Assembly (NCBI GenBank): GCA_021107835.1
Contig: JAIOSD010000048.1
Span: forward strand, 1 to 34,656
DNA length: 34,656 nucleotides
Source: an archaeon
GTDB lineage: Archaea > Nanobdellota > Nanobdellia > SCGC-AAA011-G17 > PNOQ01
Reading direction: 5' to 3'
The first letter of the stretch is position 1; the number at the start of each line of letters is the position of its first letter. The notes under the pieces are model-generated. The model made no database searches, had not been told where the DNA came from, and worked only from the letters and a program-made list of their open reading frames with translations. The translations under genes and the position numbers were made by a program. This document shows, in pieces, positions 10,001-31,763 of this stretch.

Positions 10001-10938
10001 AATAATCCCTCCTCATTTTCTACTAATTTAATTGTGCCACTAGGCAAAAGCACATAATAATCATGTACAAGTGTGATAAATATCGCCTCTGGATAGCCCC
10101 CTTGCCCTCCAAGTTCAGCAAGAAAATCACAACTAACAACCTTAGTAAGCCCTTCACTAAAGTCTAATAAGCCTTTACTATTTAAGTCATCACAATTGAA
10201 ATATCCTTGATTTCCCAATTGTGCCTCAATCTTCAAAAAATGATCTTGAGTATCTTCCCAAAAAACACTTCCTTTAGAATCTTTTTTTAAGTATACATCA
10301 ATCTTAACTACTGCTTTATTACCTTGTTTACCCAATCTCTTCACAACTTTTTCAACAATAACAGGAGCAAGGTCTCCTTCAATATTTCCTTGAGTAAAAG
10401 TTTGCCCATTTTCACAAGGAAAATCAATTTCAGTGGCCGGAAGTTTTACACAAACATCATTTAATTTAAATTCACTAATAACAGAGTACCTTAATTCTGC
10501 ATTTATAGTTGTTTTGTCATTTCCATGAGCAATGCCAGAATAAGAATATGCTCCGCCACCTTCAGGAAAATGTTTTAAAACAACACCAGGAACCAACCCC
10601 TCATTTGAATCTACAGTTGCTGCAGGAATTTCTATGTTTTTTATACAAGGTTTTAATTTAGGAATGCCCCCAATGGAAGCAGAAGCCAAATCAGAAACAC
10701 ATAATGTAGCGCCTTCAACTACTTTTGGAAGATTATTAGTTAAAAGAATATCTACCCCAAACTCATCATACTCATCCAAACAATACCCGGTAGAATCCTT
10801 ACAACTAGAATAAAACTCATTATTTTTTGTAAATTCTAAATCAACACCGCCCATATTTGTTTTAGCAGTTTGCTTATTACACCCAGAAATAGAAAAAACT
10901 AATACCATCAATAATAAGATAATAATAACACCTCTCAT
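9997..10938 (-). CDS. secreted lipoprotein-like protein (lipobox SISGC), distant paralog of 9077..10000
   Basis: N-terminus MRGVIIILLLMVLVFSISGCNKQ. Both mature proteins start with GG.D.LE..F, and both are Cys-containing and beta-rich. Confidence 0.65.
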   Translation of the reverse strand: MRGVIIILLLMVLVFSISGCNKQTAKTNMGGVDLEFTKNNEFYSSCKDSTGYCLDEYDEFGVDILLTNNLPKVVEGATLCVSDLASASIGGIPKLKPCIKNIEIPAATVDSNEGLVPGVVLKHFPEGGGAYSYSGIAHGNDKTTINAELRYSVISEFKLNDVCVKLPATEIDFPCENGQTFTQGNIEGDLAPVIVEKVVKRLGKQGNKAVVKIDVYLKKDSKGSVFWEDTQDHFLKIEAQLGNQGYFNCDDLNSKGLLDFSEGLTKVVSCDFLAELGGQGGYPEAIFITLVHDYYVLLPSGTIKLVENEEGLL

Positions 10939-14158: not shown

Positions 14159-15022
14159 ATGTTTGATTATATAATTGCCTTAATCGCTTTAATTTGGTTA
14201 ACAGCAGCAGCAGTAATAGATATAAAAACAAAAGAAATACCCAACTGGTTAAATTTCAGTTTAATAGCAGTAGCCTTCTCAATCTTCTTATTTAAATCAA
14301 TACAACTTTCAAGTTTTCAACCAATTCTAAGTAGTTTAGTTGGATTTGGGATAGTTTTCATAATAGGAAATATAATGTATTACACTAAACAATGGGGTGG
14401 AGGGGACGCAAAACTACTTTATGGTTTAGGCGCTTTATTACCTCATTATCCACAACAACTAACAAATTTTTTCAGTCCAAATCTAAACCTCCCTTTCTTA
14501 GCAATCTTATTCATAAACATAATGGTAATAGGCGCAGCATATGCTCTGTTAATTAGTTTCATACTAATAATAAAAAGAAGAAAAGAATTTTCAAAAGAAT
14601 TCAAAAGAACAACTAACAAAATAAAAGGATTATCTAAAGTCTTATTCACTTTATTAACTATTTTCATACTAGCAATAATATTTATCCAAAACAATTTAAC
14701 TAGAACATTTTTATTTTTAATTGTAGTATTCCCTATCTTATTTTTCTATTTATTTATTTCAATAAAAACTATAGAAAAAGTTCAAATGTATAAAAAAATA
14801 AAAACTTCAAAATTAGTTGAAGGGGATTGGATAACAGAAAAAATAATAATAAACAAAAAATTAATTTACAATCCAGAAAAATCTTTAGGAATAACAAAAA
14901 AACAAATAGCTTTAATTAAAAAACATAAAAAAGAAATAATAATAAAAGAAGGAATTGCATTTGTACCTTCATTCTGGATAGCAACAATAATTAGTTTAGT
15001 CTTTGGGAATATTTTGTTTTAA
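14159..15022 (+). CDS. A24-family prepilin/preflagellin aspartyl peptidase (FlaK/PibD/EppA class)
   Basis: First catalytic Asp in AAAVIDIKTKEIPN (GAT at 14219..14221) and second in WGGGDAKLL (GAC at 14405..14407). C-terminal IAFVPSFWIA. Polytopic. The start is set at the ATG at 14159 (MFDYII); the track start at 14027 overlaps the divergent gene. Confidence 0.8.
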   Translation: MFDYIIALIALIWLTAAAVIDIKTKEIPNWLNFSLIAVAFSIFLFKSIQLSSFQPILSSLVGFGIVFIIGNIMYYTKQWGGGDAKLLYGLGALLPHYPQQLTNFFSPNLNLPFLAILFINIMVIGAAYALLISFILIIKRRKEFSKEFKRTTNKIKGLSKVLFTLLTIFILAIIFIQNNLTRTFLFLIVVFPILFFYLFISIKTIEKVQMYKKIKTSKLVEGDWITEKIIINKKLIYNPEKSLGITKKQIALIKKHKKEIIIKEGIAFVPSFWIATIISLVFGNILF

Positions 15023-20943: not shown

Positions 20944-21930
20944 CTAATCACAAATTTCAATCATCTTAGCAGGATCCAAAGCCTTAATATCAGAACTAGT
21001 AAACTCTAACCGATCAAACATAGTATTTTTAGTAACTCTACCACTAATACTTAATTGCTTACCAAGAACCTCCTTCTTAAATCCCTCAAATATCTCAGAA
21101 CTAGCCTCAGCTATTTTATCATTTTTACAACCAAGTAACTGCTCAGCTTGATTAGAAAAACACACAACGCGAATATTATTGCTACCATCGTCAAAGAAAA
21201 TATTCACAATAGAAGATTTTCTGGCACTAACAGCACCATGAGTCTTACAAGACCCATCAGGAAGAACTTTACGATTACACTCAGGACAAGCCAAATAATG
21301 TCTAGGTTCAAATAGTTGCACAACAGTGCCTTGTAACTCAGCAAACATACCCTCTTTTAACTCACAAATCTTACAAACTTCAGCACTAGGCCTTTCAAGC
21401 ACTTGATTCTGAACCTCACCAATTTTCTCACCTTTAGGATTTATTTCCATCTGAGCCTTATTACCCAAATGTAACTCATTATAACCATTATTAACTCTAG
21501 AATAAGCATTACGAACTTTCAAAATATCTCCTTCATTAAGATTTCCTTCTTCAATCTCAGATATCAACTTCTCATCCCACATAACAACACGAATAGTAGC
21601 AGTTTCATCTCCAATAACAATATTAGCAACCTTACCACTACGACCGTTCTTATTAAACTCTCTAACACCATACATTTGCAAAACCTTACCCACTGCATTA
21701 ACAGAACCAACACCCTTAGGAATTTCTTTAATCTTTAAGCGTTTACCAGTTAAATCTTCACTCATTTTAACACCTAACTGATTAGCAACTATTTGCGCAG
21801 CACCTTCTTTACTAATTAAATCAGATAACTGAGAAATTTTCTCATTGATTTTCTCATCCAAATCTTCTTTAGAAATCTCTTTCTCTTTCAGAATTTTTTC
21901 AACAATATCTTCGTATTTTAAACCAAACAT
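20944..21930 (-). CDS. replication protein A-like ssDNA-binding protein (OB folds + Zn ribbon)
   Basis: N-terminal LISKEGAAQIVANQLGV, OB fold VGKVLQMYGVREFNKNGRSGKVANIVIGDETATIRVVMWDE, and Zn ribbon YLACPECNRKV..DGSCKTHG. Confidence 0.75.
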   Translation of the reverse strand: MFGLKYEDIVEKILKEKEISKEDLDEKINEKISQLSDLISKEGAAQIVANQLGVKMSEDLTGKRLKIKEIPKGVGSVNAVGKVLQMYGVREFNKNGRSGKVANIVIGDETATIRVVMWDEKLISEIEEGNLNEGDILKVRNAYSRVNNGYNELHLGNKAQMEINPKGEKIGEVQNQVLERPSAEVCKICELKEGMFAELQGTVVQLFEPRHYLACPECNRKVLPDGSCKTHGAVSARKSSIVNIFFDDGSNNIRVVCFSNQAEQLLGCKNDKIAEASSEIFEGFKKEVLGKQLSISGRVTKNTMFDRLEFTSSDIKALDPAKMIEICD

Positions 21931-22679
21931 TGAAATGTATCTCCAACCAAAGGATTCAACTCCTTAAAGTCAACAGCCGCCTTCAGAACCACCTCTTTTT
22001 CCCCAAAGACGTCTGTTATACTATCGGAAACCATCTCTACTTTAAATAGATTATTGTTCTCCTCAAAATAGAATTTTGCATTATTATCCCAACATCCTTT
22101 ATCTGCCCCACAAAGATCTACCACACTTTTAAGTTCATCTACATTTTCTAAAAAAGAATTAAAATCATAATCATAAAAAACATTAATATTACCCATAGGC
22201 CTATGTTTTATCTCATAACCATCTCTATCAACAACATACTCTTCAACAGAATCTAAATCTACAACCATTCCACCTTTTTCAAAAATTAAATCAGTTTCAT
22301 ACCCTCCAAAGAAATCCATTCTAGCATTCAAAAGAGAAATAAAACTACTCTCTAAACTACCAATATTAGGATAACAATCTACATCGCCCCTAACAAAATA
22401 AACATATCCATCATCAGTACTATCCCCTTCAAAATTACCCCCAAAATTACCAAATTCAACAATCAAATCAGAAAAGCCTTGTTTCAAAACCTGTTTATCA
22501 TAAATCAAATCTTTTTCCCCATCAAAGGATAACTGAATAAGATCTAACTGCATCTCACCCACATATCCTTTTTGATTTTCCATAGCTTGAGTAAATAAAA
22601 CTAAAGATAAACCAAAGGATAAAACTACAAAAACTAAAACAAAGTGGACCAACATCTCTCCTTTTTTATTTAAAGACAT
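21918..22679 (-). CDS. pilus-locus protein 12, N-terminal NKKG motif + TM helix
   Basis: MSLNKKGEMLVHFVLVFVVLSFGLSLVLF..., 253 aa, Cys-containing ectodomain. It overlaps the upstream gene by 10 nt and the downstream RPA gene by 13 nt. Confidence 0.6.
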   Translation of the reverse strand: MSLNKKGEMLVHFVLVFVVLSFGLSLVLFTQAMENQKGYVGEMQLDLIQLSFDGEKDLIYDKQVLKQGFSDLIVEFGNFGGNFEGDSTDDGYVYFVRGDVDCYPNIGSLESSFISLLNARMDFFGGYETDLIFEKGGMVVDLDSVEEYVVDRDGYEIKHRPMGNINVFYDYDFNSFLENVDELKSVVDLCGADKGCWDNNAKFYFEENNNLFKVEMVSDSITDVFGEKEVVLKAAVDFKELNPLVGDTFQCLV

Positions 22680-23125
22680 TTTTCCACCCCTTTCTCTTCA
22701 TATTCAGAAATATCCAAACAAATTTGAATTAAATCATCTTTACCCGGATAAGGGATACAAATACTTTTACCATTGTTTCCAGAACCAAATTCTAAATTAC
22801 CAAGATCTAGATAATAACAATCCCCATAAACTGCACTAAAAAGATTATTAGTAACACTCACTAATTTATCTTCATAAGAAGAATCAACTAAAAAAAGATT
22901 AATTAAGTCAGAAACATCACCAACCTCAACAGGTGTATTCAAATAATTGTTCAATACAAAAATATTCTCTTTTGCATAGAGAGCCTCTTTAACAGCAATT
23001 TCTTCATCTTTATCTTTAGTAACACCAGGAATAATAAATACTAAAAAAATTAAAAGTAAAAAAGCAAACACTAAGAAAACTCCAAAAGCTTCTGCCAAAT
23101 CCAAACTTCCTCTTTTATTTAACAT
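22670..23125 (-). CDS. pilus-locus protein 11, NKRG motif + TM helix
   Basis: MLNKRGSLDLAEAFGVFLVFAFLLLIFLVFII..., 151 aa, with an 11-nt overlap upstream. Confidence 0.6.
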   Translation of the reverse strand: MLNKRGSLDLAEAFGVFLVFAFLLLIFLVFIIPGVTKDKDEEIAVKEALYAKENIFVLNNYLNTPVEVGDVSDLINLFLVDSSYEDKLVSVTNNLFSAVYGDCYYLDLGNLEFGSGNNGKSICIPYPGKDDLIQICLDISEYEEKGVEKCL

Positions 23126-23594
23126 CAGTCACCACCAAAATATCTAAAATCCCTTGTTTAATTTCTCCACCATCTTCTATCAAAACATATTTCCTAGTAG
23201 AAAAACAATCATAAAAACTCCCCTTCATACCACAAGTAACTTTCTGAGCAACCATCCATTTATTTATTTCAGAAACACCAATTTCAACACCATCTAAACC
23301 ACTTAACTTTAACTCAACACCAACCCTTTCATTATCAGGAACATCAAAACAATTTTCAAGATTTTCATCATAAAATTTTCCAATATTAATCACACCAGAA
23401 GAGCCTAAACAATCATCAGAAGAAAACAACCTATAAACCGCTATTTTCTGTTCAAGTTCACTAGTCTTAACTTCCCTATGAACACTTTGTGTAAAACTCA
23501 CACTAAAAGATAACGCAACAATAATTATAAAAAAAATATAAAAGATTTGTTTTACCTGAAGCTTTTGGAGAATGTATCCTTTTTTATTTACCAT
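23115..23594 (-). CDS. pilus-locus protein 10, NKKG motif + TM helix
   Basis: MVNKKGYILQKLQVKQIFYIFFIIIVALSFSVSF..., 159 aa, with a 7-nt overlap upstream. Confidence 0.6.
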   Translation of the reverse strand: MVNKKGYILQKLQVKQIFYIFFIIIVALSFSVSFTQSVHREVKTSELEQKIAVYRLFSSDDCLGSSGVINIGKFYDENLENCFDVPDNERVGVELKLSGLDGVEIGVSEINKWMVAQKVTCGMKGSFYDCFSTRKYVLIEDGGEIKQGILDILVVTDVK

Positions 23595-24064
23595 TTTCCA
23601 CTAACTCCTGCCCCACCAGACTTTCCCCCTCCCGGATAAAAGGCATCTCCAACAACCACACCCCTCACAAAAAATTTATCTTGAGTCTTTTCAAAAACCA
23701 ACTTAGAATAATCTCCCAAAGCCAAAGATACCGTTTCTATATTTGAATTAGCAACACAACTTATTCTATTTCCAGAGTAAATGGGGGTATCATCTAAAAC
23801 CACACTAAAGACACAAGGAGACTCAAAAGAACTATCAAACCGATGTTCATCAGAATTAATTTCATAAACCAAATCAACTTCCCCATCAAAACCCAAAATC
23901 AAATCAGCACCCAGTTTCAAATCATTAGCAATTAAGCGTTCTTCAAATCCAGTTCCATCTGCAACCTTTTCCATAAAAAACCACATACTAAGGAAAACTA
24001 CTACTACAATAAAACCATAAGCTGCCCCTAAAAAAAGCCGAGGATCATTAGAGCTATCTGACAT
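23588..24064 (-). CDS. pilus-locus protein 9, N-terminal TM anchor, Gly-rich C-terminus
   Basis: MSDSSNDPRLFLGAAYGFIVVVVFLSMWFF..., ending in ...YPGGGKSGGAGVSGKW. It lacks the NKKG motif. Confidence 0.55.
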   Translation of the reverse strand: MSDSSNDPRLFLGAAYGFIVVVVFLSMWFFMEKVADGTGFEERLIANDLKLGADLILGFDGEVDLVYEINSDEHRFDSSFESPCVFSVVLDDTPIYSGNRISCVANSNIETVSLALGDYSKLVFEKTQDKFFVRGVVVGDAFYPGGGKSGGAGVSGKW

Positions 24065-24088
24065 AGAATAATTCTAACATTTATTGTT

Positions 24089-24100
24089 TATATTACTTTT
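24089..24100. repeat. 12-nt direct repeat copy A (TATATTACTTTT)
   Basis: Identical to 24411..24422. It flanks the G+C-richer ORF 24118..24375. Confidence 0.8.
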
Positions 24101-24117
24101 GTAATGTTTATTTAGTG

Positions 24118-24375
24118 TTAATCTCTCTGGCTATCCAATACTTGAACCATCCCTTCAATTTCGCTTCGGGTAACATAAGATAACCCCGCACTAATTGGGA
24201 CTCCATTAAAATACTTAACCTCGTTAACGGAAAGCAATGAATCAGTTACCCGGTTAAACTGCCTAAGCCATGTTGTCCCACTTGTTTCCTTAACAAACCC
24301 CATCGCCTCTCCAATCTCACTTCCATGATAGAGAACTTCCTGCTCCTCGCCCAATAGTAGACAAATAGATCCCAT
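24118..24375 (-). CDS. compositionally foreign 85-codon ORF inside the pilus locus (coding status uncertain)
   Basis: About 43% G+C by my hand count (111/258), against clearly AT-richer neighbours. Only 2 Lys in 85 aa, with frequent GAG/GGG/CAG codons. No TM segment. A TATA-like TTATAAAT lies about 25-28 nt upstream of the ATG, which would give a leaderless-type transcript. It has ~50-nt gaps on both sides, unlike the overlapping neighbours. Confidence 0.4.
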   Translation of the reverse strand: MGSICLLLGEEQEVLYHGSEIGEAMGFVKETSGTTWLRQFNRVTDSLLSVNEVKYFNGVPISAGLSYVTRSEIEGMVQVLDSQRD

Positions 24376-24410
24376 AAAAAAAGAAATTTAAATATATTTA
24401 TAACTTTATC

Positions 24411-24422
24411 TATATTACTTTT
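24411..24422. repeat. 12-nt direct repeat copy B (TATATTACTTTT)
   Basis: Identical to 24089..24100. It abuts the stop codon of 24424..24903. Confidence 0.8.
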
Positions 24423-24423
24423 C

Positions 24424-24903
24424 CTATTCAGTTATACTCAATTTAGAGCCAACCCATTTAAGTTGTAAGGGAACATATTCTTTTTGTCCTATACTAACAA
24501 TCCCTGAATCCATATTAGTTGGAATAAACCCTTCAAAATCATATGTAGCAATAAACCTAGAATTCAAACAAGATTCAGGAGCACCATCATTTCTACAAAC
24601 TATTAAACAAGCTTTATTAAAACACTCAGGAGGACGTTCATATACTCCAGAACCTTCATTAGCCGCCTTATCAAAAGCAACCAACATTTGATCCTTATTC
24701 ATATAAATAAGATATGTAGTTTCCCCCCCCGTTTCTAGGTACAAAACAGTCCCATCAAGCATATCAAAAGACTCCCTTGTTCCAGCATCAAAATCACTAG
24801 AAAACATAGACCACAACACCTCACTCGCAGGAATTAAAATAAAAATAATAACAATCGCTCCCGCAATAATACCAATTAAAGCACTAGTAGTCATCTTACC
24901 CAT
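24424..24903 (-). CDS. pilus-locus protein 7, N-terminal TM anchor
   Basis: MGKMTTSALIGIIAGAIVIIFILIP..., 159 aa, Cys-containing. It contains a G8 run (plus-strand C8 at 24723..24730). Confidence 0.6.
   Translation of the reverse strand: MGKMTTSALIGIIAGAIVIIFILIPASEVLWSMFSSDFDAGTRESFDMLDGTVLYLETGGETTYLIYMNKDQMLVAFDKAANEGSGVYERPPECFNKACLIVCRNDGAPESCLNSRFIATYDFEGFIPTNMDSGIVSIGQKEYVPLQLKWVGSKLSITE
24723..24730. repeat. C8/G8 homopolymer inside a surface-protein gene
   Basis: Plus strand ttCCCCCCCCg. It encodes T-G-G-E (ACG GGG GGG GAA) on the minus strand and is the longest G/C run I noticed in the window. Confidence 0.7.
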
Positions 24904-25114
24904 TATTCATCACATCCGTAAGATTTGTAGGGGCAGCTTCACTAGCCAACCCTAAAAGTTGTTTTACAGCATCAAAAACAGTGTTAGACTGACTACTAAA
25001 AATAGCTATAATTACAAAAAGAACTATTATAAAAATAATAAGACCAATAATAGTCTGAATAGATAATCCCTGCCCTTTTTTACATTTCAAATAAAAAAAA
25101 AGAGAAGTTAGCAT
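24896..25114 (-). CDS. class III signal peptide (type IV pilin-like) protein, paralog of 25108..25452
   Basis: ...KCKKGQGLSIQTIIGLIIFIIVLFVIIAIF... The ATG at 25114 sits in the last codons of the upstream gene (caATGcTAA). The alternative TTG at 25090 would give MKCKKGQ... The track start at 25129 is a TTG. Confidence 0.6.
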   Translation of the reverse strand: MLTSLFFYLKCKKGQGLSIQTIIGLIIFIIVLFVIIAIFSSQSNTVFDAVKQLLGLASEAAPTNLTDVMNNG

Positions 25115-25452
25115 TGTATTGCTGAACAAGCGGCTGCAGGCATTTCAGTACAGTATAAAGTAACGTCTGCCTTTCGATCATTATCAAGATCTACTTCAAA
25201 TGAAGCATGACAATACCTATCTCTAAAATTCTCATCACCAGATACTTCATAAGCTTGACAATAACCATTACATTGCAAAACTGCCCCTTGAGTATCTATA
25301 GCACTAGATCCCCAAACCTTATTCCACCAGTCTGCAAATTGCCCAGTACCTCCAGTTAAAGCAACAACTAATATGACTAAAACAAAGATTGCAAGGATAG
25401 TAATGATAATAGTATTAACAGAAAGATTTTGTCCTTTTTTATTATCCATCAT
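25108..25452 (-). CDS. type IV pilin-like protein, major-pilin candidate (KKG|Q class III signal)
   Basis: MMDNKKGQNLSVNTIIITILAIFVLVILVVALTGG..., with 6 Cys in the C-terminal half. It is preceded by GAGGTGAT (25456..25463), the clearest Shine-Dalgarno match I found in this locus. The track start at 25455 is a TTG. Confidence 0.7.
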   Translation of the reverse strand: MMDNKKGQNLSVNTIIITILAIFVLVILVVALTGGTGQFADWWNKVWGSSAIDTQGAVLQCNGYCQAYEVSGDENFRDRYCHASFEVDLDNDRKADVTLYCTEMPAAACSAIQC

Positions 25453-25455
25453 CAA

Positions 25456-25463
25456 ATCACCTC
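25456..25463 (-). promoter_or_regulatory. Shine-Dalgarno GAGGTGAT upstream of pilin gene
   Basis: The plus strand reads atcacctc. The spacer TTG precedes the ATG at 25452. Confidence 0.55.
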
Positions 25464-25500
25464 TTTATTAATCTATAAAATGTTTATTTAAACTTTTTGG

Positions 25501-26103
25501 TTATCCACAAACAGGTTTAGTAGGAAAACCAGAATCCACTATACAAAAAGACCCTTTATCCCTTTTTAAGATTAAATTATTTCCATTAACTGGATAAGAA
25601 ATTTCCTCTCCAGAAAGAGATTCATAATTCATAAAGCTAGAAGAACCTATAACTATTGAAACTTTAGAATCCTTTGCAATCTTAGACAAGTCTTGTATAC
25701 CACCTAGCTCATCAACACTACAGGGTATTATTCCAGTAATAACTTTTTCAGAAACAATTCCCCCAAGATTATTCAACAATCTTACTTTAGTACGAGATCC
25801 ATCCAAAGAAAAAACCAATTCATATTGATTGGGAAAAGAAAAAGTATCAGAAGTATCACAAAAACATCCAACAGAAGTACTAGTCTTACAATCAATTAAA
25901 GAACTAATAAATCCGCTATCAAAATTATCTTTTGCTTCATCATCCCCTGGAGCTTCTAAACCAAGACTCCATCCAAAAAGACCATTTGCAAGGGCAGCAA
26001 AAGATTTGTCTTGAAAAGCAACTATCCCAAAAATAACCATCAAAACTAAAAAAGCAGGAAGAAGCCACCGCCCAATACCCCCTTTCTTATTTAAAGATTT
26101 CAT
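25501..26103 (-). CDS. pilus-locus protein 4, NKKG motif + TM helix
   Basis: MKSLNKKGGIGRWLLPAFLVLMVIFGIVAF..., 200 aa with several Cys. There is an ATGA overlap with the upstream mini-ORF. Confidence 0.6.
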   Translation of the reverse strand: MKSLNKKGGIGRWLLPAFLVLMVIFGIVAFQDKSFAALANGLFGWSLGLEAPGDDEAKDNFDSGFISSLIDCKTSTSVGCFCDTSDTFSFPNQYELVFSLDGSRTKVRLLNNLGGIVSEKVITGIIPCSVDELGGIQDLSKIAKDSKVSIVIGSSSFMNYESLSGEEISYPVNGNNLILKRDKGSFCIVDSGFPTKPVCG

Positions 26104-26252
26104 CCACCAAACCTCAAAACATTTTTTATTGTATCCAACAACTCAACTAACTGCTCTTTTTGTTTAAAAATTATCAATAAAACTGCAATTAATAAAATTA
26201 AAATTATTAACCACGTACCTAGTTTATTCCAAACTATTTCTCCTTTTTTCAT
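26100..26252 (-). CDS. 50-aa mini-protein with KKG motif + TM helix (absent from ORF track)
   Basis: My translation is MKKGEIVWNKLGTWLIILILLIAVLLIIFKQKEQLVELLDTIKNVLRFGG. It has ATGA overlaps at both ends. Confidence 0.5.
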   Translation of the reverse strand: MKKGEIVWNKLGTWLIILILLIAVLLIIFKQKEQLVELLDTIKNVLRFGG

Positions 26253-27100
26253 TGATGACAAGCCCCCGCAACTTCTTCAGCACTACCAACATAAAGATAA
26301 GAAACATAATCTGTTTTCCTAGCAAGAGTTTCTGCAAAAACATCTATAATTAGTCCGCCTGCACACCCAATAACTCCTCCAACGGCAGTTCCAGCAACAG
26401 GAAGAACAACAGAACCAATCGCACCACCAATATACGCACCACCAACACAACTTCCAACACCTAAAACAATTTCTGTAGTATCTGGAGTTTCCCAAAAGTT
26501 TTTCCAAAGATCTGCCCTCTTATCTGCAAAAAAGACAACATAAAGAGAATCATTCAAATCAACACTAGAATCAGTAGAATAGCCCATATAACCAGAGCTA
26601 TCAACTTTGTAAAAATATTCATAAAAAGTTCTCTTAGATCCTAAAGGAATTCTCTCAGTAGCCAAAAAATCATTAAAGTCACTTAAAGGAATATTATTAA
26701 TCTCTTTTTTTATATCCTCTGAAAAATCTATCCTAGAACAAACAAAACACCAATTGTCCCCTTTCCATAAATCCCAATCAGGCATAAAATCCTTTTCTCC
26801 CTCAGCAAATTGATACCAACAATCATACATTTCTCCTGCAATAGTTTCATAAATTTCATCTTCATCTTTAGAATCTATTTCAACCAAATTAGTCTCACAA
26901 TCAAAATCCATTCCAAAAGGGGAATTTCCAAGTATTTTAGTTTGAGCCCGTAACAACACACTATTTCTACAAGCTTCTCTATCTAAAGAATCACTTCCAA
27001 GATTAGCAAATGCACCAGTAACCCATAATAAAACAACCCCAGAAATAAGAACTATTAACAATCCAACGATAGTCCACATAGTCATTCCTTTCTTATCCAA
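26249..27100 (-). CDS. pilus-locus protein 2: DKKG motif + TM helix, ectodomain, C-terminal glycine-zipper hydrophobic region
   Basis: With the TTG at 27100 the protein begins (M)DKKGMTMWTIVGLLIVLISGVVLLWV... The C-terminus is GVGSCVGGAYIGGAIGSVVLPVAGTAVGGVIGCAGGLII. The start is uncertain: GTG at 27127, TTG at 27100 or ATG at 27085. Confidence 0.6.
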   Translation of the reverse strand: MDKKGMTMWTIVGLLIVLISGVVLLWVTGAFANLGSDSLDREACRNSVLLRAQTKILGNSPFGMDFDCETNLVEIDSKDEDEIYETIAGEMYDCWYQFAEGEKDFMPDWDLWKGDNWCFVCSRIDFSEDIKKEINNIPLSDFNDFLATERIPLGSKRTFYEYFYKVDSSGYMGYSTDSSVDLNDSLYVVFFADKRADLWKNFWETPDTTEIVLGVGSCVGGAYIGGAIGSVVLPVAGTAVGGVIGCAGGLIIDVFAETLARKTDYVSYLYVGSAEEVAGACHQ

Positions 27101-27203
27101 GAAAACCAAGCCCCCCAGTAACAGCACTATAAAAAAGATAGATAGTTACAATTATTAAAACTAAAACAATAATCTCAGTAAGGGTCATACTACCACCTTT
27201 CAT
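27093..27203 (-). CDS. 36-aa mini-pilin-like peptide (absent from ORF track)
   Basis: My translation is MKGGSMTLTEIIVLVLIIVTIYLFYSAVTGGLGFLG. It is the first ORF after the platform gene. The alternative start at the second ATG (27188) is preceded by AGGTGG. Confidence 0.4.
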   Translation of the reverse strand: MKGGSMTLTEIIVLVLIIVTIYLFYSAVTGGLGFLG

Positions 27204-27243: not shown

Positions 27244-29388
27244 TCAAATCATATTGGAACTAGTTGTCAAAACCTGCGAAGCAATATAATTGAACAACAA
27301 AATACCAATCAAAGCAATCGCTAGATATATTAGAGTCCCCTTCAGAATATTCTTTCCTGCACTATTTTGCTCATTTAATTTATCCACTCCAAACTCAATA
27401 CCATTCACCAACACACTTAAAATATATATTATCTGGATTACATAAACCCCTACAACAACCTGAAACCAATATCCTGGAATAGCATCTGTTTTAGAAAACA
27501 TATCAGCTACAGTACTTACATCAAAACCAGCAGAAACATCTCCTGCATTTACTTGATCTAACAAATTACTCAACTTAGAAATCACCCCTACAATCATACT
27601 AGAAATACCTACAACAATGCCAGAAATAACAGGAGCCATAAATTTAATCTGGCTCTGCATACTAGAGATAATTTCAGCTAATAAATCTTTTAACCTTTCA
27701 TTAACTTTGTGAACATTACCCACATATTGAGAAATACTAGTTAAAGATTGTGCCACGATCTTTGGACCTTTTCTAGAACTTTCTAATAAAACTTCCATAG
27801 AACTCTGAACTAAAGGGCTCGGATAATCTAAATAAGCACCATTTTCAGGATTAAAAATAGCCTCTTTTAAACTCATCCCCCCTTTAACCAAATTCAAATG
27901 AACTTTTCCAAAAAATTTCCCTGCAGGAGTACCACTCATCGTTTTAGCAACATCTTTAAATGCTAATTCAGAAGGGATTCCATCCCCAATACGAGTCCCA
28001 AGTTGGAATAATGCAGTAGCAAACTCACTCTCTAATCTTTTAGTTTCTTTTCTAAGTTTCATAGCTTTTTTAGTTTTAGAGTTAAAATACATCCAAAGTG
28101 AAATAGCAAACCCAAGCGGAATAAATAAACCAATTAACAAAGCACCCAAACCAAAAGGCCCAACACAACCAGAATTATTACATTCAAAGTCTAAAAACTT
28201 TTCGCCACCAGATCCATCAGAATTTGACCAAAAAGTAATATCAAAACCAGGATTTATTTCATGAAGAATAAATGGGCTAGCCCCTATAATCAAAAAGAAT
28301 AAGGAGATTATAATTGCAGTAAAAGCCACCCCTTTCTTAGACTTAAAGGGCACTTTAACTTGTCCATAACTTCCAGGACGTTTGTTTAAAATATTAACTC
28401 CAACACTATAAACAAGTAAAGGCAACAAAACATTATATAATATAGCTAAGTGATACCACTTAACAGAACCCAAAAACACCCCAATTAAAGGAAACATAAC
28501 CAACCCTAAAATAGGTAAGATTACACCAAGCATGTGCAACATAGTAATAGGATTTTTCAAATCATGTGCATAATGCAACATCTTTTCATAAATTCCATCC
28601 AAAATAGTTTTTAGAGATTTATCTAATAATTCTGTTCTTCTTCCTTCACTGGGTTCATACAAACTACTTTCAATAAGGTGAAAAGAATTAACAAATTCTA
28701 AATTATGCTCCCTCCACTTACCAAGATAACTCTCTAAAGATTCTTTTAATGTTGAATATTTGCTAGTCTGAACATCCCAAAAAATCTTTCTCAAATCCAA
28801 AGACAAAGAACCACTTAAATGATCAGAAGCGAACTTAATAGCATTCTCTAAGTTAGAAGTATGCCTCATATAAATAACAATGTAAAGAATACAAAGCACC
28901 ATTTGATTGCTTGCATCTAATCTCCACCTACCAGCAATATAATTCGGCAATCTAGTCAAAGGACCAATAAGCAACACAGAAACCAAAATCAAAAGAAGAG
29001 CTACAAAAACTATCCCAAACCTATCTGTAAGAAAATAAGAAACCCCTCCAATAACCAAACCAATCAAAACCAATAAAGTAGAAACCAAAATGGCAAAGCT
29101 GGCAGCGCCAACAGGAGTTATAGCTAAATGAGAAATATCAATACTTTTTTCTATTTTTTCAATATCTTTATCAGAAGGATTTACTTTCACAATACTTTCA
29201 GAAAAATTACATAACTTCTCATATCTAGTAAACCCCTTACCAAGTGCTTCTTCTCTAAATTTGGAATATTCTTTAGAAAACTCTGGATCCGGTTGATATT
29301 CTTCAACTTCATCCAAAGTAACTCTTTTATCCAGTTTTGCTTTGTATTTGTTTAAGATATCTTGGATTTCTTTATTAGATATAGGCAT
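27244..29388 (-). CDS. FlaJ/TadC/PilC-like polytopic platform protein (T2SS F-type)
   Basis: 714 aa with many TM helices and two soluble helical blocks (for example KRLESEFATALFQLGTRIGDGIPSELAFKDVAKTM). Its ATG directly follows the ATPase stop. Confidence 0.7.
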   Translation of the reverse strand: MPISNKEIQDILNKYKAKLDKRVTLDEVEEYQPDPEFSKEYSKFREEALGKGFTRYEKLCNFSESIVKVNPSDKDIEKIEKSIDISHLAITPVGAASFAILVSTLLVLIGLVIGGVSYFLTDRFGIVFVALLLILVSVLLIGPLTRLPNYIAGRWRLDASNQMVLCILYIVIYMRHTSNLENAIKFASDHLSGSLSLDLRKIFWDVQTSKYSTLKESLESYLGKWREHNLEFVNSFHLIESSLYEPSEGRRTELLDKSLKTILDGIYEKMLHYAHDLKNPITMLHMLGVILPILGLVMFPLIGVFLGSVKWYHLAILYNVLLPLLVYSVGVNILNKRPGSYGQVKVPFKSKKGVAFTAIIISLFFLIIGASPFILHEINPGFDITFWSNSDGSGGEKFLDFECNNSGCVGPFGLGALLIGLFIPLGFAISLWMYFNSKTKKAMKLRKETKRLESEFATALFQLGTRIGDGIPSELAFKDVAKTMSGTPAGKFFGKVHLNLVKGGMSLKEAIFNPENGAYLDYPSPLVQSSMEVLLESSRKGPKIVAQSLTSISQYVGNVHKVNERLKDLLAEIISSMQSQIKFMAPVISGIVVGISSMIVGVISKLSNLLDQVNAGDVSAGFDVSTVADMFSKTDAIPGYWFQVVVGVYVIQIIYILSVLVNGIEFGVDKLNEQNSAGKNILKGTLIYLAIALIGILLFNYIASQVLTTSSNMI

Positions 29389-31677
29389 CTATACACTCCT
29401 TTTAATTTCTTTTTTCAACCAATCTTTCCATCTAAATAAGATTTTTTTATTATCTAGTTCTCCCGTTTTACTAAGCACCTCATCAGAGATTTTATGAAAA
29501 GCATCATTTGAAGCAAGTACAAAAGAAGCTTCTAATAAATCTTTTCTTTTAAGTTCATTAGCATTTTTAACTAACTCTTCTTTTATCTCCTTTCTAACCA
29601 TAATATTTTCCCAAACAGCATCCCAATTCCCAGCCCATTCTTTTACATTTCCAGCTATTTGTTTTATAACTTCAGAATCACCATTTAACAAATTATCTGT
29701 AGGTTCCAACAAATCAGTCTCAGGATTATAAACCATTAAATCAACAACCCCCCCTTCACGCAAAGGATCTTCTTCCCATTCCTTCCTTACTTCAGTAATA
29801 CTTAAAACTCTTCTAACACTCTTCAAACCATCTGGTGTTTTTATTGGATTAGCAACAACAATTATATCAGTCGCCTTAAAACTAGTTCTCGGAACTCCTA
29901 AATCATTAACCACCCTATCAAAAACAGAATAAGGGCTTCCACCATGAATAGTACCTGCAACAACATTTGCTAAAGCACCAATCCTCATTGCCTCATAAAG
30001 AGCCAAAGCTTGTTTACTTCTAACCTCTCCAACAATCAAACTACTATCGCCCAACCTCAAACTAGCCCTTATCCCTTCCTCTGCAGCTAATTCAGTCCCA
30101 CCTTCAGATAAAGCAGATCTAACTTTCAAAGGTTGTATATTGTATCCTAAATGTCTTAATGACCTAACTGGTAATTCTAAAGTGTCTTCAACCGTAATTA
30201 ATCTGTATTTTCTCATAATCTCAACCATACAAGAGCCAAGCAAAGAAGTTTTCCCACTACTTCTAGTACCTGCAACCAACATCGTTCTTCCCCCATCAAT
30301 TAAAAAACTCAAAAGGGCAGCACCAAGTGAGCTTATCATTTTATTATCAATAAATAAAGGCAAGGTCCAAGGTTTGTCTCTATGTCTCCTGAATGCATAT
30401 CCCAATCCAACAGGATTTAAAGGACTAGAAATAATTGCAACTCTTGCTCTTGCACCAGGAATTACTAACTCAGTGTCTAAAATAGGATTTGCTTCATCTA
30501 AAGGTCTTCCAGAAATCATTCTAAATTTAGTTGCCCAACCTTCACCATCTGCTTTACTGGGAATAATATTAGTTGAACATTCTCCATAATCTTGATGTAC
30601 AATATAAATAGGTGCCTCCCCAATAGGACCATTAACAACAATATCTTGTATCTTATCATCTCTTAATAAAACTTCTAACAACCCAAATCCAACAGTATAT
30701 CTAACCAAAATAGCAGCCAATTTTTTTATTTCCTCAAAAGAAATATTCATTTGCTGTCGCTCAGCCAACTCACTAATTAAATCTCTTCCAATATTAAAAA
30801 AAGTTTCCCTCATTCTTTCAGGATCAGTAAATTCTTCAGCAACAGGTTCGTGTTCAGAAAGAACAGATTTAGCAAGATCCAACAAACTTAATTTATCCTC
30901 ACTAAGTCCAAATTCAGGAGGGGTAATGTGATACCTGTTCTTTATATCATCATCCACTTGAAAAATCATAACACCAATATCTTCTCCAACAAGATAACTA
31001 TCTATTTCATTTGCATTAATGGGTGGTTCAGCCATTAACCGAGTATGTATAAAATTTGGAGTTATAATGGGTCTGAAAAAATTAGTATAGAGAGTTCTTT
31101 CCCCAATAGCATAACCATCTAAATCAGATTTAGCAAGTAAAATTAACTTTGTTTTTTCTAATAATTCAAGCATTTCCTCCAACGTCTTCAAATAAACATT
31201 TACTTGGGTTACATCTTCTGACAATTTTCCACTTTTAAGTTTTATTTTTTCTTCTCGCACCAGCCTTTTAAGCTCAACATAAGCTCCAAGAGGATCTGTT
31301 CTAAGTAAATTTGTAACAACATACTGTATATTAGCAAACCGCTTAGAAACCGCAGTAGATAAATAAGGATCTGCCCCAACAGAATACAAACTTAAAATCC
31401 TTTTTTGTTTAGTTAAAAAAATATAAATATTCGCAATCTCCCTTAACATTGCAGTCTGTTCACTATCATATTGATAGTTTCTATCAAAAGATAGTACAAT
31501 CCGATTAACACCTGGACTCTCAATTAATTTATCAATAATACTTGCCATACAAATACCATTATCTTCAATAGAAGGTGGATAAGATAGTCCAAAAAAATTA
31601 ACCCTCATTATATGCTCTTCGCCTTCTTCTACTAGCTCATACTCTCCAGGTTTCAATTTTTTTTGAGAAATTGTCAT
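29389..31677 (-). CDS. type II/IV secretion family ATPase (FlaI/VirB11/GspE superfamily), extended form
   Basis: Motifs: IQDIVVNGP, Walker A VAGTRSSGKTS (about 30247..30270), ITVEDTLEL, Walker B LIVGEVR, His box VAGTIHGG. The ATG at 31677 is preceded by GGGGAGTGGTGAT. An alternative ATG at 31701 would give 770 aa. Confidence 0.85.
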   Translation of the reverse strand: MTISQKKLKPGEYELVEEGEEHIMRVNFFGLSYPPSIEDNGICMASIIDKLIESPGVNRIVLSFDRNYQYDSEQTAMLREIANIYIFLTKQKRILSLYSVGADPYLSTAVSKRFANIQYVVTNLLRTDPLGAYVELKRLVREEKIKLKSGKLSEDVTQVNVYLKTLEEMLELLEKTKLILLAKSDLDGYAIGERTLYTNFFRPIITPNFIHTRLMAEPPINANEIDSYLVGEDIGVMIFQVDDDIKNRYHITPPEFGLSEDKLSLLDLAKSVLSEHEPVAEEFTDPERMRETFFNIGRDLISELAERQQMNISFEEIKKLAAILVRYTVGFGLLEVLLRDDKIQDIVVNGPIGEAPIYIVHQDYGECSTNIIPSKADGEGWATKFRMISGRPLDEANPILDTELVIPGARARVAIISSPLNPVGLGYAFRRHRDKPWTLPLFIDNKMISSLGAALLSFLIDGGRTMLVAGTRSSGKTSLLGSCMVEIMRKYRLITVEDTLELPVRSLRHLGYNIQPLKVRSALSEGGTELAAEEGIRASLRLGDSSLIVGEVRSKQALALYEAMRIGALANVVAGTIHGGSPYSVFDRVVNDLGVPRTSFKATDIIVVANPIKTPDGLKSVRRVLSITEVRKEWEEDPLREGGVVDLMVYNPETDLLEPTDNLLNGDSEVIKQIAGNVKEWAGNWDAVWENIMVRKEIKEELVKNANELKRKDLLEASFVLASNDAFHKISDEVLSKTGELDNKKILFRWKDWLKKEIKRSV

Positions 31678-31763
31678 ATCACCACTCCCCTTTAACAACA
31701 TAAAGTTTATTATAGTATCTAATAAAAGCTATATTAATCTGATTAAATAGTTTTCGTTTTAAA

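What the first reader, a model, noticed from the sequence alone, without database searches (positions are those of the whole stretch)
21918..27203. Shared [ND]-K-[KR]-G N-terminal motif in 9 of 12 ORFs, but several are non-canonical for pilins
The N-termini read directly from the sequence are:
- MKGGS-MTLTE (27203)
- (M)DKKGM (27100)
- MKKGE (26252)
- MKSLNKKGG (26103)
- MMDNKKGQ (25452)
- KCKKGQ (25090/25114)
- MVNKKGY (23594)
- MLNKRGS (23125)
- MSLNKKGE (22679)

This looks like the K/R-G cleavage context used by A24 peptidases. In several proteins, however, the hydrophobic helix does not start at +1. Examples are G-YILQKLQVKQ-IFYIFF, G-SLDLAEAF-GVFLVF and G-EIVWNKLGT-WLIIL. That is atypical for pilins, whose +1 to +20 region forms the filament core. 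Either a subset are true pilins and the rest are uncleaved anchors, or the peptidase here tolerates a spacer.
Basis: seen in the sequence. Interest (0 to 1): 0.6.

Follow-up and report, generated by a model that had tools for sequence, protein, structure and literature searches.

The report
Prepilin signal shared by a DPANN pilus operon
The shared N-K-K-G start is most likely the cut-off signal for pilus-type proteins in a tiny symbiotic (Woesearchaeota-like) archaeon, and it marks eleven unannotated pilin-like genes in one conserved operon.

Summary
Nine of the 12 minus-strand ORFs in 21918-27203 start with x(0-13)-K-[KRG]-G followed by a hydrophobic helix.

The stretch is the distal part of one operon. 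It runs from a T2SSE ATPase (29389-31701) through a fused platform protein (27244-29388) to 11 conserved prepilin-like genes and one window-specific ORF.

In 20 syntenic loci from relatives, 137 of 174 orthologues keep the motif. The -1 alignment column is G, A or S in 136 of 144 residues. Pfam-recognised pilins elsewhere in the same genome carry the same leader. Each of six genomes examined has a single A24 peptidase with both catalytic Asp motifs.

The "spacers" are conserved within each orthogroup, so they belong to the mature N-terminus. In orthogroups E, H, L and M they hold a conserved acidic residue at +5 to +7, comparable to Glu5 of bacterial pilins. Only C, E, I and L are truly atypical, with 5-14 partly charged residues before the hydrophobic core.

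Some orthologues have lost the leader. In H their start Met falls exactly at +1; in K, L, I and C it lies near +1.

Cleavage itself is inferred, not shown. Fold searches found no solved pilin.

Verdict: a new variant of a known kind, of moderate interest.

The parts
29389..31701 (-). Secretion ATPase (770 aa) of the type IV filament family, first gene of the operon
   Evidence: Pfam T2SSE PF00437, E 3.7e-13, 49.3 bits over the 24.9 cut-off. Best NCBIfam match is FlaI, E 7.7e-38, but below that model's cut-off.
27244..29388 (-). 714-aa polytopic membrane protein, a diverged fused two-domain platform (TadC/ArlJ-like)
   Evidence: No Pfam or NCBIfam hit. hhalign of a 25-sequence alignment (built from 28 fetched platform orthologues, 3 outside 680-760 aa dropped) against T2SSF proteins of the same genome: residues 52-263 at 93% probability, residues 446-611 at 39%. 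About 10 hydrophobic segments. Found in 40 of 41 related genomes at 47-73% identity.
27093..27203 (-). C: 36-aa domain-less prepilin-like mini-protein (MKGG|SMTLTE...)
   Evidence: A small TM ORF at this position in 20 of 21 loci. Twelve carry K[KR][GA]; the window copy has K-G-G; seven have no leader.
26249..27100 (-). D: 283-aa prepilin-like protein (TTG start, LDKKG|MTMW...) with a globular Cys-rich domain and a Gly/Ala-rich hydrophobic insert
   Evidence: Motif in 19/19 orthologues. AF2: helix 3-56, then an alpha/beta domain; residues 197-261 have pLDDT below 50. Second hydrophobic stretch in 16/19.
26100..26252 (-). E: 50-aa prepilin-like mini-protein (MKKG|EIVWNKLGT-TM...LRFGG)
   Evidence: Motif in 19/19. 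Conserved spacer E-[IL]-x-W-[DE]-K-[LI]-G-K-W and C-terminal R-[FY]-G-G.
25501..26103 (-). F: 200-aa prepilin-like protein (MKSLNKKG|GIGR...)
   Evidence: Motif in 7/13 orthologues.
25108..25452 (-). G: 114-aa pilin-like protein (MMDNKKG|QNLSVNTIII...), my candidate for the major subunit
   Evidence: Motif in 20/20, Gln at +1 in 19/20, six invariant Cys. GAGGTGA lies 4-7 nt upstream of the ATG. Its profile matches in 266 of 301 genomes sampled across the phylum.
24896..25114 (-). H: 72-aa domain-less paralogue of G (MLTSLFFYLKCKKG|QGLSIQTII...)
   Evidence: hhalign G versus H: 99% over 56 columns. Motif in 14/17. Three orthologues without a leader start at +1. Translation from 25114.
24424..24903 (-). 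I: 159-aa member whose leader has decayed in the window (MGKMTTSAL...)
   Evidence: Eight of 17 orthologues carry NKK[AG] or K[KR]G plus a spacer of about 7 residues ending in Lys.
24118..24375 (-). J: 85-aa ORF without a TM segment; membership doubtful
   Evidence: No BLASTP match in any of the 20 syntenic loci.
23588..24064 (-). K: 158-aa N-terminally anchored member, without a leader in this family
   Evidence: Three of 18 orthologues, all from other families of the order, start MNK[KR]G.
23115..23594 (-). L: 159-aa prepilin-like protein with the longest spacer (MVNKKG|YILQKLQVKQ-IFY...)
   Evidence: Motif in 16/20. Glu or Asp in one spacer column in 18/20. AF2 mean pLDDT 81.9, one helix 4-38 running through the spacer, then an alpha/beta domain.
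22670..23125 (-). M: 151-aa prepilin-like protein (MLNKRG|SLDLAE-AFGV...)
   Evidence: Motif in 14/14. Asp or Glu at sequence position +6 in 9/14, plus Asn in 2.
21918..22679 (-). N: 253-aa prepilin-like protein with no spacer (MSLNKKG|EMLVHFVLV...)
   Evidence: Motif in 17/17, Gly at -1 in 17/17.
14159..15022 (+). Presumed processing enzyme: 287-aa A24 aspartyl prepilin peptidase (PibD/FlaK-like)
   Evidence: Pfam PF01478, E 5.2e-17. It is the only A24 match in the genome. Asp21 and G-G-G-D 80-83 are invariant in 6/6 aligned orthologues.

Best explanation
The motif M-x(0-4)-[ND]-K-[KR]-[G>A>S] is this lineage's class III (prepilin-type) signal peptide.

The span 21918-27203 is the subunit part of a type IV filament operon that is conserved across an order of Woesearchaeota-like DPANN archaea. 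The operon encodes an ATPase, a fused platform protein and 11 prepilin-like proteins.

Inferred steps:
1. Each protein inserts with its N-terminus in the cytoplasm.
2. The genome's single A24 aspartyl peptidase (14159-15022) cuts after the G/A/S residue.
3. The mature protein starts with an orthogroup-specific segment of 0-14 residues. In AF2 models this segment continues as one helix into the hydrophobic core.
4. In E, H, L and M the segment holds a conserved acidic residue at +5 to +7 that plays the part of pilin Glu5.

Inferred roles:
- G is the likely body subunit. It has the second-highest mean column identity of the six orthogroups aligned with that tool (41%, against 52% for the 50-residue E; D is also 41%), and its profile is found in 266 of 301 genomes sampled across the phylum.
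- C, E and H are domain-less mini-subunits.
- D, F, I, K, L, M and N, which have unrelated globular domains, are minor, tip or base subunits.

Shown here: motif conservation, synteny, presence of the peptidase and helix continuity in models. Inferred: cleavage, filament formation and individual roles.
For: (1) Orthologues. In 20 syntenic loci plus the window, 137 of 174 orthologues in ten orthogroups have [KRN][KR][GAS] just before the helix. In MAFFT columns chosen without fixing -1, nine orthogroups give G 119, A 15, S 2 and other 8 out of 144 non-gap residues. A review reports this G/A/S set as required at -1, with a charged -2 critical in archaea (PMC4371748, passages). In ordinary N-terminal anchors of this genome, Gly follows the last basic residue in only 18 of 179.

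(2) Protein-level selection. Gly codons are GGA 68, GGT 36, GGG 10 and GGC 8. Only 24 of 137 motif-bearing genes have both an SD-like core in the motif and an in-frame start within the next 5 codons. For 10 of 10 orthologues checked, public gene calls use exactly the motif-including starts. SD-like GGTG or GAGG sits 4-9 nt upstream of the window starts of F, G, L, M and N, and the genes overlap by 4-11 nt.

(3) Same leader on recognised pilins. A second locus has MKRG|QAAMEY, which scores over the Pfam PF04021 cut-off. A third has MNKRG|ISPLIATV, a sub-threshold PF07790 match.

(4) One peptidase. One A24 peptidase per genome in 6 of 6 genomes. Both Asp motifs are invariant in 6/6. It lies within about 5-12 kb of the locus in 5 of the 6, by coordinates.

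(5) Orthologues without a leader. The three H variants place their start Met in the +1 column. K reads MEEERIYLW in one set and MNKRG|TEELQYIW in another. L, I and C behave alike.

(6) Shared module. Only the N-terminal 17-56 columns are shared between orthogroups (hhalign 85-99% for 15 pairs). The C-terminal domains are unrelated.

(7) Models. AF2 gives a long N-terminal helix followed by a globular domain for L (helix 4-38, pLDDT 81.9) and D (helix 3-56, pLDDT 67.5).
Against: - No N-terminus has been mapped, so cleavage is inferred.
- None of the 12 window proteins matches a Pfam or NCBIfam pilin family. None of 20 G members matches PF04021 or PF07790, even at E<=1.
- Fold searches of the L and D models found no solved pilin. 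For L, Foldseek found nothing at E<=0.001 and the best VIA Z was 6.3, to Cache/PDC-like sensors. For D the best Z was 4.5.
- C, E, I and L have 5-14 partly charged residues before the hydrophobic core. The reviews I read do not describe this for archaeal pilins.
- E's Trp at +4 and +10 looks like a membrane-interface anchor.
- D has a second hydrophobic Gly-rich stretch, which would be awkward in an extruded subunit.
- The leader is missing in 37 of 174 orthologues, so processing is not essential for every member.
- Related genomes are not independent samples: 15 of the 20 loci come from one family.
- The -1 column was picked by maximising K/R and G/A/S counts.
Confidence: 0.65

Rival explanations
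1. Mixed set. Only the members with a short or canonical N-terminus (D, G, H, M, N) are cut and polymerise. The spacer-bearing ones (C, E, I, L, perhaps F and K) are pilin-derived bitopic membrane proteins. They stay in the membrane as assembly or stator parts, uncleaved, and their K-K-G is an inherited positive-inside tail.
For: Spacers of 5-14 residues with Lys and Glu. Trp at +4 and +10 in E. Leaders lost in I (9/17), K (15/18), L (4/20) and C (7/20) without loss of the gene. The top Foldseek rows for L's globular domain (all weak, E 0.03 or worse) are small alpha/beta proteins such as GlnK/PII and CutA, not solved pilins. From recall, archaellum ArlF/ArlG have pilin-like uncleaved anchors.
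Against: The -1 column is as restricted in the spacer families as in the others: E G14 A3 of 19, L G16 A2 S1 of 19, I G5 A4 of 11. A tail shaped only by charge would not keep Gly or Ala. The N at -4 is also kept.
Confidence: 0.22
2. Artefact of start calling or composition. The A-rich AAY-AAA-AAA-GGN stretch is an untranslated ribosome-binding or initiation-enhancing element, or plain Lys richness of a 31% GC genome. On this reading the real starts lie downstream.
For: Lys makes up 9.9% of residues. Of 137 motifs, 53 contain GGAG, GGTG or GAGG. In the window, D, N and the 36-aa ORF have a Met just after the motif.
Against: - In 113 of 137 there is no SD-like core followed by an in-frame start within 5 codons.
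- In the window, E, F, G, H and L have no in-frame start codon after the motif until codon 21 or later, or none at all in the first 40 codons, which is well inside or beyond the helix.
- Arg replaces Lys at -2 in 32 of 137, and the Gly codon varies.
- The motif is about 5 times more frequent at N-termini than chance predicts (16 ORFs against about 3.2 expected), and it clusters on contigs that carry a T2SSE-family ATPase gene.
Confidence: 0.03
3. Ordinary Sec signal peptides removed by signal peptidase I after the hydrophobic region.
For: About ten large proteins of this genome start MK[KR]G followed by a short h-region and an Ala-rich end, which looks Sec-like.
Against: In the locus proteins the hydrophobic stretch is 19-41 residues long. 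In the two AF2 models it continues as a helix into the folded domain. The N-terminal module is the conserved part, whereas Sec signal peptides are discarded.
Confidence: 0.03

Closest known systems
Epd pili of Methanococcus maripaludis (archaeal T4F 'system 1'; EppA-processed DUF361 pilins)
   Same: [quoted passage not shown] K-G|Q cut sites with Gln at +1 and an acidic residue a few positions later (PMC4371748 Table 1 and passages; PMC13705601 section 11). Here G has Gln at +1 in 19/20 and H in 10/17.
   Different: The platform is one fused 714-aa protein, not two genes. No second EppA-type peptidase was found: one A24 match per genome in 6/6. There is no PF04021 match. The acidic or Asn residue sits at +6, not +5. 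Eleven subunit-like genes sit directly in the operon. This genome also has a separate Epd-like locus with two T2SSF genes.
Bacterial Tad/Flp pili and their TadE/TadF pseudopilins (from recall: cut at G|xxxxEY)
   Same: Very small subunits without a globular domain (C 36-53 aa, E 49-55 aa, H 48-72 aa). Six of the 12 leader-bearing C orthologues read G|xxx[DE][YF]. PMC13705601 section 11 states that Tad probably derives from the archaeal Epd pilus.
   Different: The register is one residue shorter. No Pfam Flp hit among the families reported at E<=0.1. The host is an archaeon with a single membrane.
Minor pilin and pseudopilin sets of bacterial type IV pili and type II secretion (FimU-PilVWXE, GspHIJK)
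   Same: Several co-transcribed proteins share only the N-terminal prepilin module and differ completely in their globular parts. They are thought to prime or tip the filament.
   Different: From recall, bacterial minor pilins are hydrophobic from +1. Here four orthogroups carry a polar extension. No structural match was found: XcpV/W appears only at Z 3.3, rank 43, for D.
Archaellum stator proteins ArlF/ArlG (from recall)
   Same: Pilin-like N-terminal helix plus a small globular domain. They stay at the base of the machine.
   Different: From recall, ArlF/G lack the K-G cut site. Here the site is conserved. There is no ArlH, ArlCDE or archaellin in this operon.
BasABC pilin-like proteins of the Sulfolobus bindosome
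   Same: Small class III signal proteins next to an ATPase/platform pair that may not form a long filament (PMC2910488 passage).
   Different: No substrate-binding proteins in this locus, a different ATPase type, and far more subunits.

Membership tests
Archaeal class III (prepilin-type) signal peptide, substrate of PibD/FlaK | Short N-terminal leader with a charged residue at -2 | tested here: met
   K 100 and R 32 of 137 motif-bearing orthologues. In the window the leaders are 4-14 residues long.
Archaeal class III (prepilin-type) signal peptide, substrate of PibD/FlaK | Gly, Ala or Ser at -1 | tested here: met
   136 of 144 non-gap residues in the -1 alignment column of nine orthogroups: G 119, A 15, S 2. 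The rule is as stated in PMC4371748.
Archaeal class III (prepilin-type) signal peptide, substrate of PibD/FlaK | Hydrophobic H-domain of about 20 residues starting at or next to +1, for orthogroups D, G, N (and H, M allowing one acidic residue) | tested here: met
   Distance to the first uncharged 10-residue hydrophobic window: N mostly 0, G 1-2, D 0-8, H and M mostly 6 with Asp or Glu at +6.
Archaeal class III (prepilin-type) signal peptide, substrate of PibD/FlaK | Hydrophobic H-domain starting at or next to +1, for orthogroups C, E, I, L | tested here: not met
   Spacers: E 5-9, I 2-14 (mostly 7), L 6-14 residues, with Lys, Glu or Asp. C has about 8-10 residues.
Archaeal class III (prepilin-type) signal peptide, substrate of PibD/FlaK | Cognate A24 peptidase with two catalytic Asp residues in the genome | tested here: met
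   PF01478, E 5.2e-17. Asp21 and GGGD 80-83 are invariant in 6/6.
Archaeal class III (prepilin-type) signal peptide, substrate of PibD/FlaK | Cleavage before the H-domain actually occurs | not testable with these tools
   Needs N-terminal mapping or a cleavage assay.
Pfam PF04021 Class_IIIsignal (DUF361; EppA substrates) | Match to the family model | tested here: not met
   None of 12 window proteins at E<=0.1. None of 20 G orthologues at E<=1. As a positive control, a pilin of another locus scores 24.7 bits against the 23.7 cut-off.
Pfam PF04021 Class_IIIsignal (DUF361; EppA substrates) | Gln at +1 and Glu at +5 | tested here: inconclusive
   Gln at +1: G 19/20, H 10/17, L 7/20. The acidic or Asn residue is at +6, not +5.
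Pfam PF04021 Class_IIIsignal (DUF361; EppA substrates) | A dedicated second (EppA-type) peptidase | tested here: not met
   One A24 match per genome in 6 of 6 genomes. The window's own genome is 85.7% complete.
Pfam PF07790 Pilin_N (archaeal type IV pilin N-terminus) | Match to the family model | tested here: not met
   No hit for any locus protein. Two proteins of the contig C62 locus score 18.9 and 19.2 bits, below the 25.2 cut-off.
Type IV filament assembly system | T2SSE-family ATPase | tested here: met
Type IV filament assembly system | T2SSF-family platform protein | tested here: inconclusive
   No Pfam hit. hhalign to the genome's own T2SSF proteins gives 93% for the N-terminal half and 39% for the C-terminal half.
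Type IV pilin fold | Long N-terminal helix carrying a globular domain | tested here: met
   AF2 of L: helix 4-38. AF2 of D: helix 3-56. Each is followed by an alpha/beta domain. Only 2 of the 11 proteins were modelled.
Type IV pilin fold | Structural similarity to a solved pilin or archaellin | tested here: inconclusive
   No pilin among the Foldseek or VIA top rows for L. For D, XcpV/W appears only at Z 3.3.

The most novel reading that the evidence does not exclude
The spacer-bearing members (C, E, I, L) may be a so far undescribed class of prepilin-peptidase substrates. On this reading they are processed, and their mature N-termini carry a conserved polar or amphipathic extension. The extension either lines a charged filament core or, once exposed by cleavage, docks on the cytoplasmic face of the platform/ATPase. 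They would then be cleaved but membrane-resident assembly subunits of a DPANN-specific filament used for host contact.
Probability: 0.2. Interest if true: 0.7.

Novelty: new variant of a known kind. Interest (0 to 1): 0.5.

Why it matters
DPANN archaea live attached to other cells and have very small genomes. Even so, this roughly 10-kb, 14-gene operon is kept in 40 of 41 related genomes searched.

The latest census of archaeal type IV filaments (PMC13705601, section 7) reports that ordered loci are rare in these archaea and that their pilins are scattered. An earlier survey could not find the pilins belonging to some nanoarchaeal ATPases (PMC4858521 passage).

Here the subunit genes sit directly behind the ATPase and platform genes. 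Pfam and NCBIfam do not recognise them, and public records name them "hypothetical protein". The leader N-K-[KR]-[GAS] is a simple handle for finding them.

The conserved polar N-terminal extensions also give a concrete test of how much sequence a prepilin peptidase and a filament core tolerate between the cut site and the hydrophobic helix.

Tried and rejected
- Pfam and NCBIfam scans of all locus proteins gave no pilin family.
- Profile searches of G, N and L against PDB sequences gave only chance-level hits, E 0.006 or worse.
- Foldseek and VIA-align searches with the L and D models found no match to solved pilins. The L domain gives middling Z values of 5-6 to Cache/PDC sensor domains, which I read as a common alpha/beta arrangement.
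- ESM Atlas search. L's nearest clusters are unnamed Nanobdellota/Woesearchaeota proteins (score 0.95-0.96). The nearest named clusters are DUF7287 and DUF7288 for L (0.83, 0.78) and DUF7286 for N (0.77), which are leads only. Searching those three Pfam models in the window's own genome found nothing in the window. DUF7287 weakly touches the N-terminus of a pilin on contig C21 (E 0.12).
- The look-up of sequencing runs listed no RNA holder. The DNA is held by marine sediment metagenome runs of one study.
- Szabo 2007 and Albers 2003 are not held. The FlaFind rule and the PibD mutagenesis are therefore cited only through reviews, and FlaFind was not run.
- I considered a -1 frameshift site (A AAA AAG) as the reason for the A-run and rejected it. 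Arg codons break the run in 32 of 137, and the site lies at the extreme 5' end.
- Literature searches for Woesearchaeota pilins or spacer-bearing class III signals listed no paper on them. Supplementary tables of PMC13705601 (S4, S5) were not opened and may list these genomes.

Full report
**What is there.** The window is contig C38 of an 803-kb, 31% GC genome in 67 contigs. Its close relatives are MAGs labelled Candidatus Woesearchaeota, Pacearchaeota or Nanoarchaeia. On the minus strand, genes are tightly packed with 4-11 nt overlaps and SD-like GGTG or GAGG motifs. In order they are:
- a 770-aa T2SSE ATPase (29389-31701; Pfam E 3.7e-13);
- a 714-aa polytopic membrane protein (27244-29388);
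- twelve small ORFs down to 21918.

- [ND] at -4 occurs in 6 of the 9.
- The 36-aa ORF C has K-G-G.
- ORF I (MGKMTT...) and ORF K lack the motif.
- ORF J has no hydrophobic segment at all.

**Is it more than chance?** I built a crude non-overlapping set of 1184 ORFs for the genome. In that set, [ND]K[KR]G occurs in the first 30 residues of 16 ORFs.
- Six of the 16 are among the 11 locus ORFs in the set (hypergeometric p about 9e-10).
- Fourteen of the 16 lie on the four contigs that carry a T2SSE-family ATPase gene.
- The density of the motif elsewhere in proteins predicts 0.0027 per N-terminus, or about 3 in the genome.

**Conservation.** The 714-aa protein is found in 40 of 41 related genomes at 47-73% identity. 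I fetched the DNA downstream of it from 20 relatives: 15 from the same family and 5 from other families of the order.

The gene order is kept. BLASTP assigns orthologues to ten of the window's ORFs, and J has none. C is too short for BLASTP, but a small TM ORF sits at its position in 20 of 21 loci.

The motif [KRN][KR][GAS] directly before the helix is present in 137 of 174 orthologues:

| Orthogroup | With motif |
|---|---|
| D | 19/19 |
| E | 19/19 |
| F | 7/13 |
| G | 20/20 |
| H | 14/17 |
| I | 8/17 |
| K | 3/18 |
| L | 16/20 |
| M | 14/14 |
| N | 17/17 |

That pattern fixes -1 by construction. I therefore also tallied MAFFT columns. In nine orthogroups the -1 column holds G 119, A 15, S 2 and other 8, out of 144 non-gap residues. 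K was left out because the automatic column choice failed for it. The column was chosen by maximising K/R and G/A/S counts, which is a mild bias.

In seven further loci from other families, 23 of 30 HMM-assigned orthologues carry the motif (counted by eye).

The motif is selected at the protein level:
- Gly codons vary: GGA 68, GGT 36, GGG 10, GGC 8.
- Arg replaces Lys at -2 in 32 of 137.
- Only 24 of 137 combine an SD-like core in the motif with an in-frame start in the next five codons.
- All ten orthologue sequences that I derived with motif-including starts exist letter for letter in public gene calls, named "hypothetical protein" where a name is given.

**Why a prepilin signal.** A review states that processing of type IV prepilins needs G/A/S at -1 and that a charged -2 is critical in archaea. 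It also states that only some archaeal pilins have an acidic +5, and that the PibD enzymes of Sulfolobus and Haloferax care little about +1 and +3 (PMC4371748, passages). The locus proteins fit the first two rules.

The same leader sits on pilins that Pfam recognises in two other filament loci of this genome:
- MKRG|QAAMEY on contig C21 scores above the PF04021 cut-off.
- MNKRG|ISPLIATV on contig C62 is a sub-threshold PF07790 match.

The genome has one A24 peptidase (14159-15022), about 6.9 kb from gene N. Five relatives, including three genomes in one or two contigs, also have exactly one. It lies 5-12 kb from the locus in four of them. Asp21 and GGGD 80-83 are invariant in 6 of 6. One enzyme must therefore serve substrates with Q, E, D, I, L or F at +1, which suggests PibD-like breadth.

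**The spacers.** Each orthogroup has its own conserved segment between -1 and the uncharged core.
- N has mostly 0 residues, G has 1-2 and D has 0-8.
- H has mostly 6 (QGLSxE-T-I-I; Glu or Asp at +6 in 14 of 17).
- M has mostly 6 (xTxLS-D; Asp or Glu at +6 in 9 of 14, plus Asn in 2).
- E has 5-9 (E-[IL]-x-W-[DE]-K-[LI]-G-K-W; acidic at +5 in 15 of 19).
- I has about 7, ending in Lys.
- L has 6-14 (Q-x-F-E-x-E-Q-L-K-M type; Glu or Asp in one column in 18 of 20).
- C reads xxx[DE][YF]L in 6 of its 12 leader-bearing orthologues.

For M and H the "spacer" is therefore the ordinary pilin N-terminus with its buried acidic residue one place later than in bacteria. C, E, I and L are unusual.

The window's own H and L have lost the acidic residue: Q at +6 in H, and YILQKLQVKQ in L.

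In the AF2 model of L (20-sequence alignment, mean pLDDT 81.9), residues 4-38 form one helix that runs through the spacer into the hydrophobic core. An alpha/beta domain follows. D models as a helix 3-56 plus a Cys-rich domain. It also has a Gly/Ala-rich hydrophobic insert at 197-261 with pLDDT below 50.

**Leader loss.** Several orthologues have no leader. In H their first residue falls exactly at the predicted +1, and in the other orthogroups it falls near it.
- The three H variants put their Met in the +1 column.
- K reads MEEERIYLW in this family and MNKRG|TEELQYIW in another.
- L reads MSFQLSKEVTKM against MNKKA|QIIMAKEVPKI.
- I and C behave alike.

This fits a removable leader on a constant mature protein. 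It also shows that processing is dispensable for some members, so it does not exclude the uncleaved-anchor rival.

**What the proteins share.** All-against-all hhalign finds similarity only in the N-terminal 17-56 columns (85-99% for 15 pairs; G versus H 99%). The C-terminal parts are unrelated. This is the pattern seen in pilin sets.

The G-type N-terminus is widespread. Its profile hits 266 of 301 genomes sampled across the phylum at E<=1e-5, with full-length matches mainly inside the order. That tally includes the unpublished genomes G267 and G268.

The 714-aa protein aligns to the genome's own T2SSF proteins in both halves, at 93% and 39% probability. It is probably a fused, diverged platform.

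**What speaks against.**
- Cleavage has not been observed.
- There is no family match and no PDB sequence match.
- There is no structural match to pilins.
- D's second hydrophobic stretch, present in 16 of 19 orthologues, and E's Trp-flanked spacer suggest that some members stay in the membrane.
- The relatives are phylogenetically clustered.

**Comparison with what is known.** The closest systems are the Methanococcus Epd pilus and, through it, bacterial Tad/Flp pili. Shared features are small domain-less subunits, Gln at +1, an acidic residue near +5, and many minor pilins in one operon.

The differences are a fused platform, no EppA-type second peptidase, a shifted register, polar N-terminal extensions in four orthogroups, and no match to the existing models.

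The 2026 census of archaeal T4F reports that ordered loci are rare in Nanobdellati and that pilins are scattered (PMC13705601, section 7). Makarova et al. could not identify cognate pilins for some nanoarchaeal ATPases (PMC4858521 passage). My four literature searches listed no paper describing this operon or spacer-bearing class III signals. I did not open that census paper's supplementary tables.

**Verdict.** The finding is real. It is best explained as the class III signal of a conserved DPANN type IV filament operon (confidence 0.65). It is a new variant of a known kind. Whether the spacer-bearing members are cut and where they end up remains open and can be tested.

Noticed in passing
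window 24118-24375 (-): The 85-aa ORF J has no hydrophobic segment, is flanked by 48-53 nt gaps, and has no BLASTP match in any of the 20 syntenic loci. It may be a lineage-specific insertion or not a gene.
   Followed up: partly
window 26249-27100 (-), residues about 197-261: D carries a Gly/Ala/Val-rich hydrophobic stretch between its globular domain and a conserved C-terminal strand and helix. It is present in 16 of 19 orthologues and has pLDDT 31-44. It could be a membrane hairpin or a glycine-zipper loop.
   Followed up: partly
window 26100-26252 (-): The 50-aa protein E ends in a nearly invariant [LF]-R-[FY]-G-G and has Trp at +4 and +10. The function of the C-terminal motif is unknown.
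   Followed up: no
window 25108-25452 (-): G has six invariant Cys and a D-x-D-G-D-G-K-x-D stretch. Weak EF-hand or thrombospondin-3 hits occur in a few of its 20 members, so it may bind calcium.
   Followed up: no
G000 contig C21:15820-24300 (L060) and C62:13100-21600 (L061): The genome has two more type IV filament loci. Each has a T2SSE ATPase and two separate T2SSF genes. One has KKG|QAAMEF-type pilins and a KaiC-like gene; the other has NKRG|ISPLIATV-type pilins. That makes three systems in a 0.8-Mb genome served by one peptidase.
   Followed up: partly
G000 contigs C24, C28, C29, C43, C45, C55, C60 and others: About ten large proteins (290-1630 aa) start MK[KR]G followed by a short hydrophobic region. 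They could be Sec substrates or further class III surface proteins.
   Followed up: no
window 2-388 (-) and 336-554 (-): Two adjacent ORFs have similar N-terminal anchors (...IISIGGT...). The first reads MKLNLRG-SLMKVSNNS-LIVLLVL, another R-G start with a polar spacer.
   Followed up: no
window 9077-10000 (-) and 9997-10938 (-): Two secreted proteins of about 310 aa have lipobox-like signals (LISGC, SISGC). One has a weak CARDB hit. Next to them are 510-aa and 380-aa N-terminally anchored Cys-rich proteins, the latter starting MSKKA|NSGSIGG.
   Followed up: no
G000 contig C62:4527-4640 (-): A 37-aa ORF, MEMDCYSMMDKKG-DIKY-LLWIIFLVIV..., resembles the C and E mini-proteins but lies outside the locus.
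   Followed up: no
whole window: There is a strong, steady negative GC skew (cumulative -10.7 over 34 kb), and most genes are on the minus strand.
   Followed up: no
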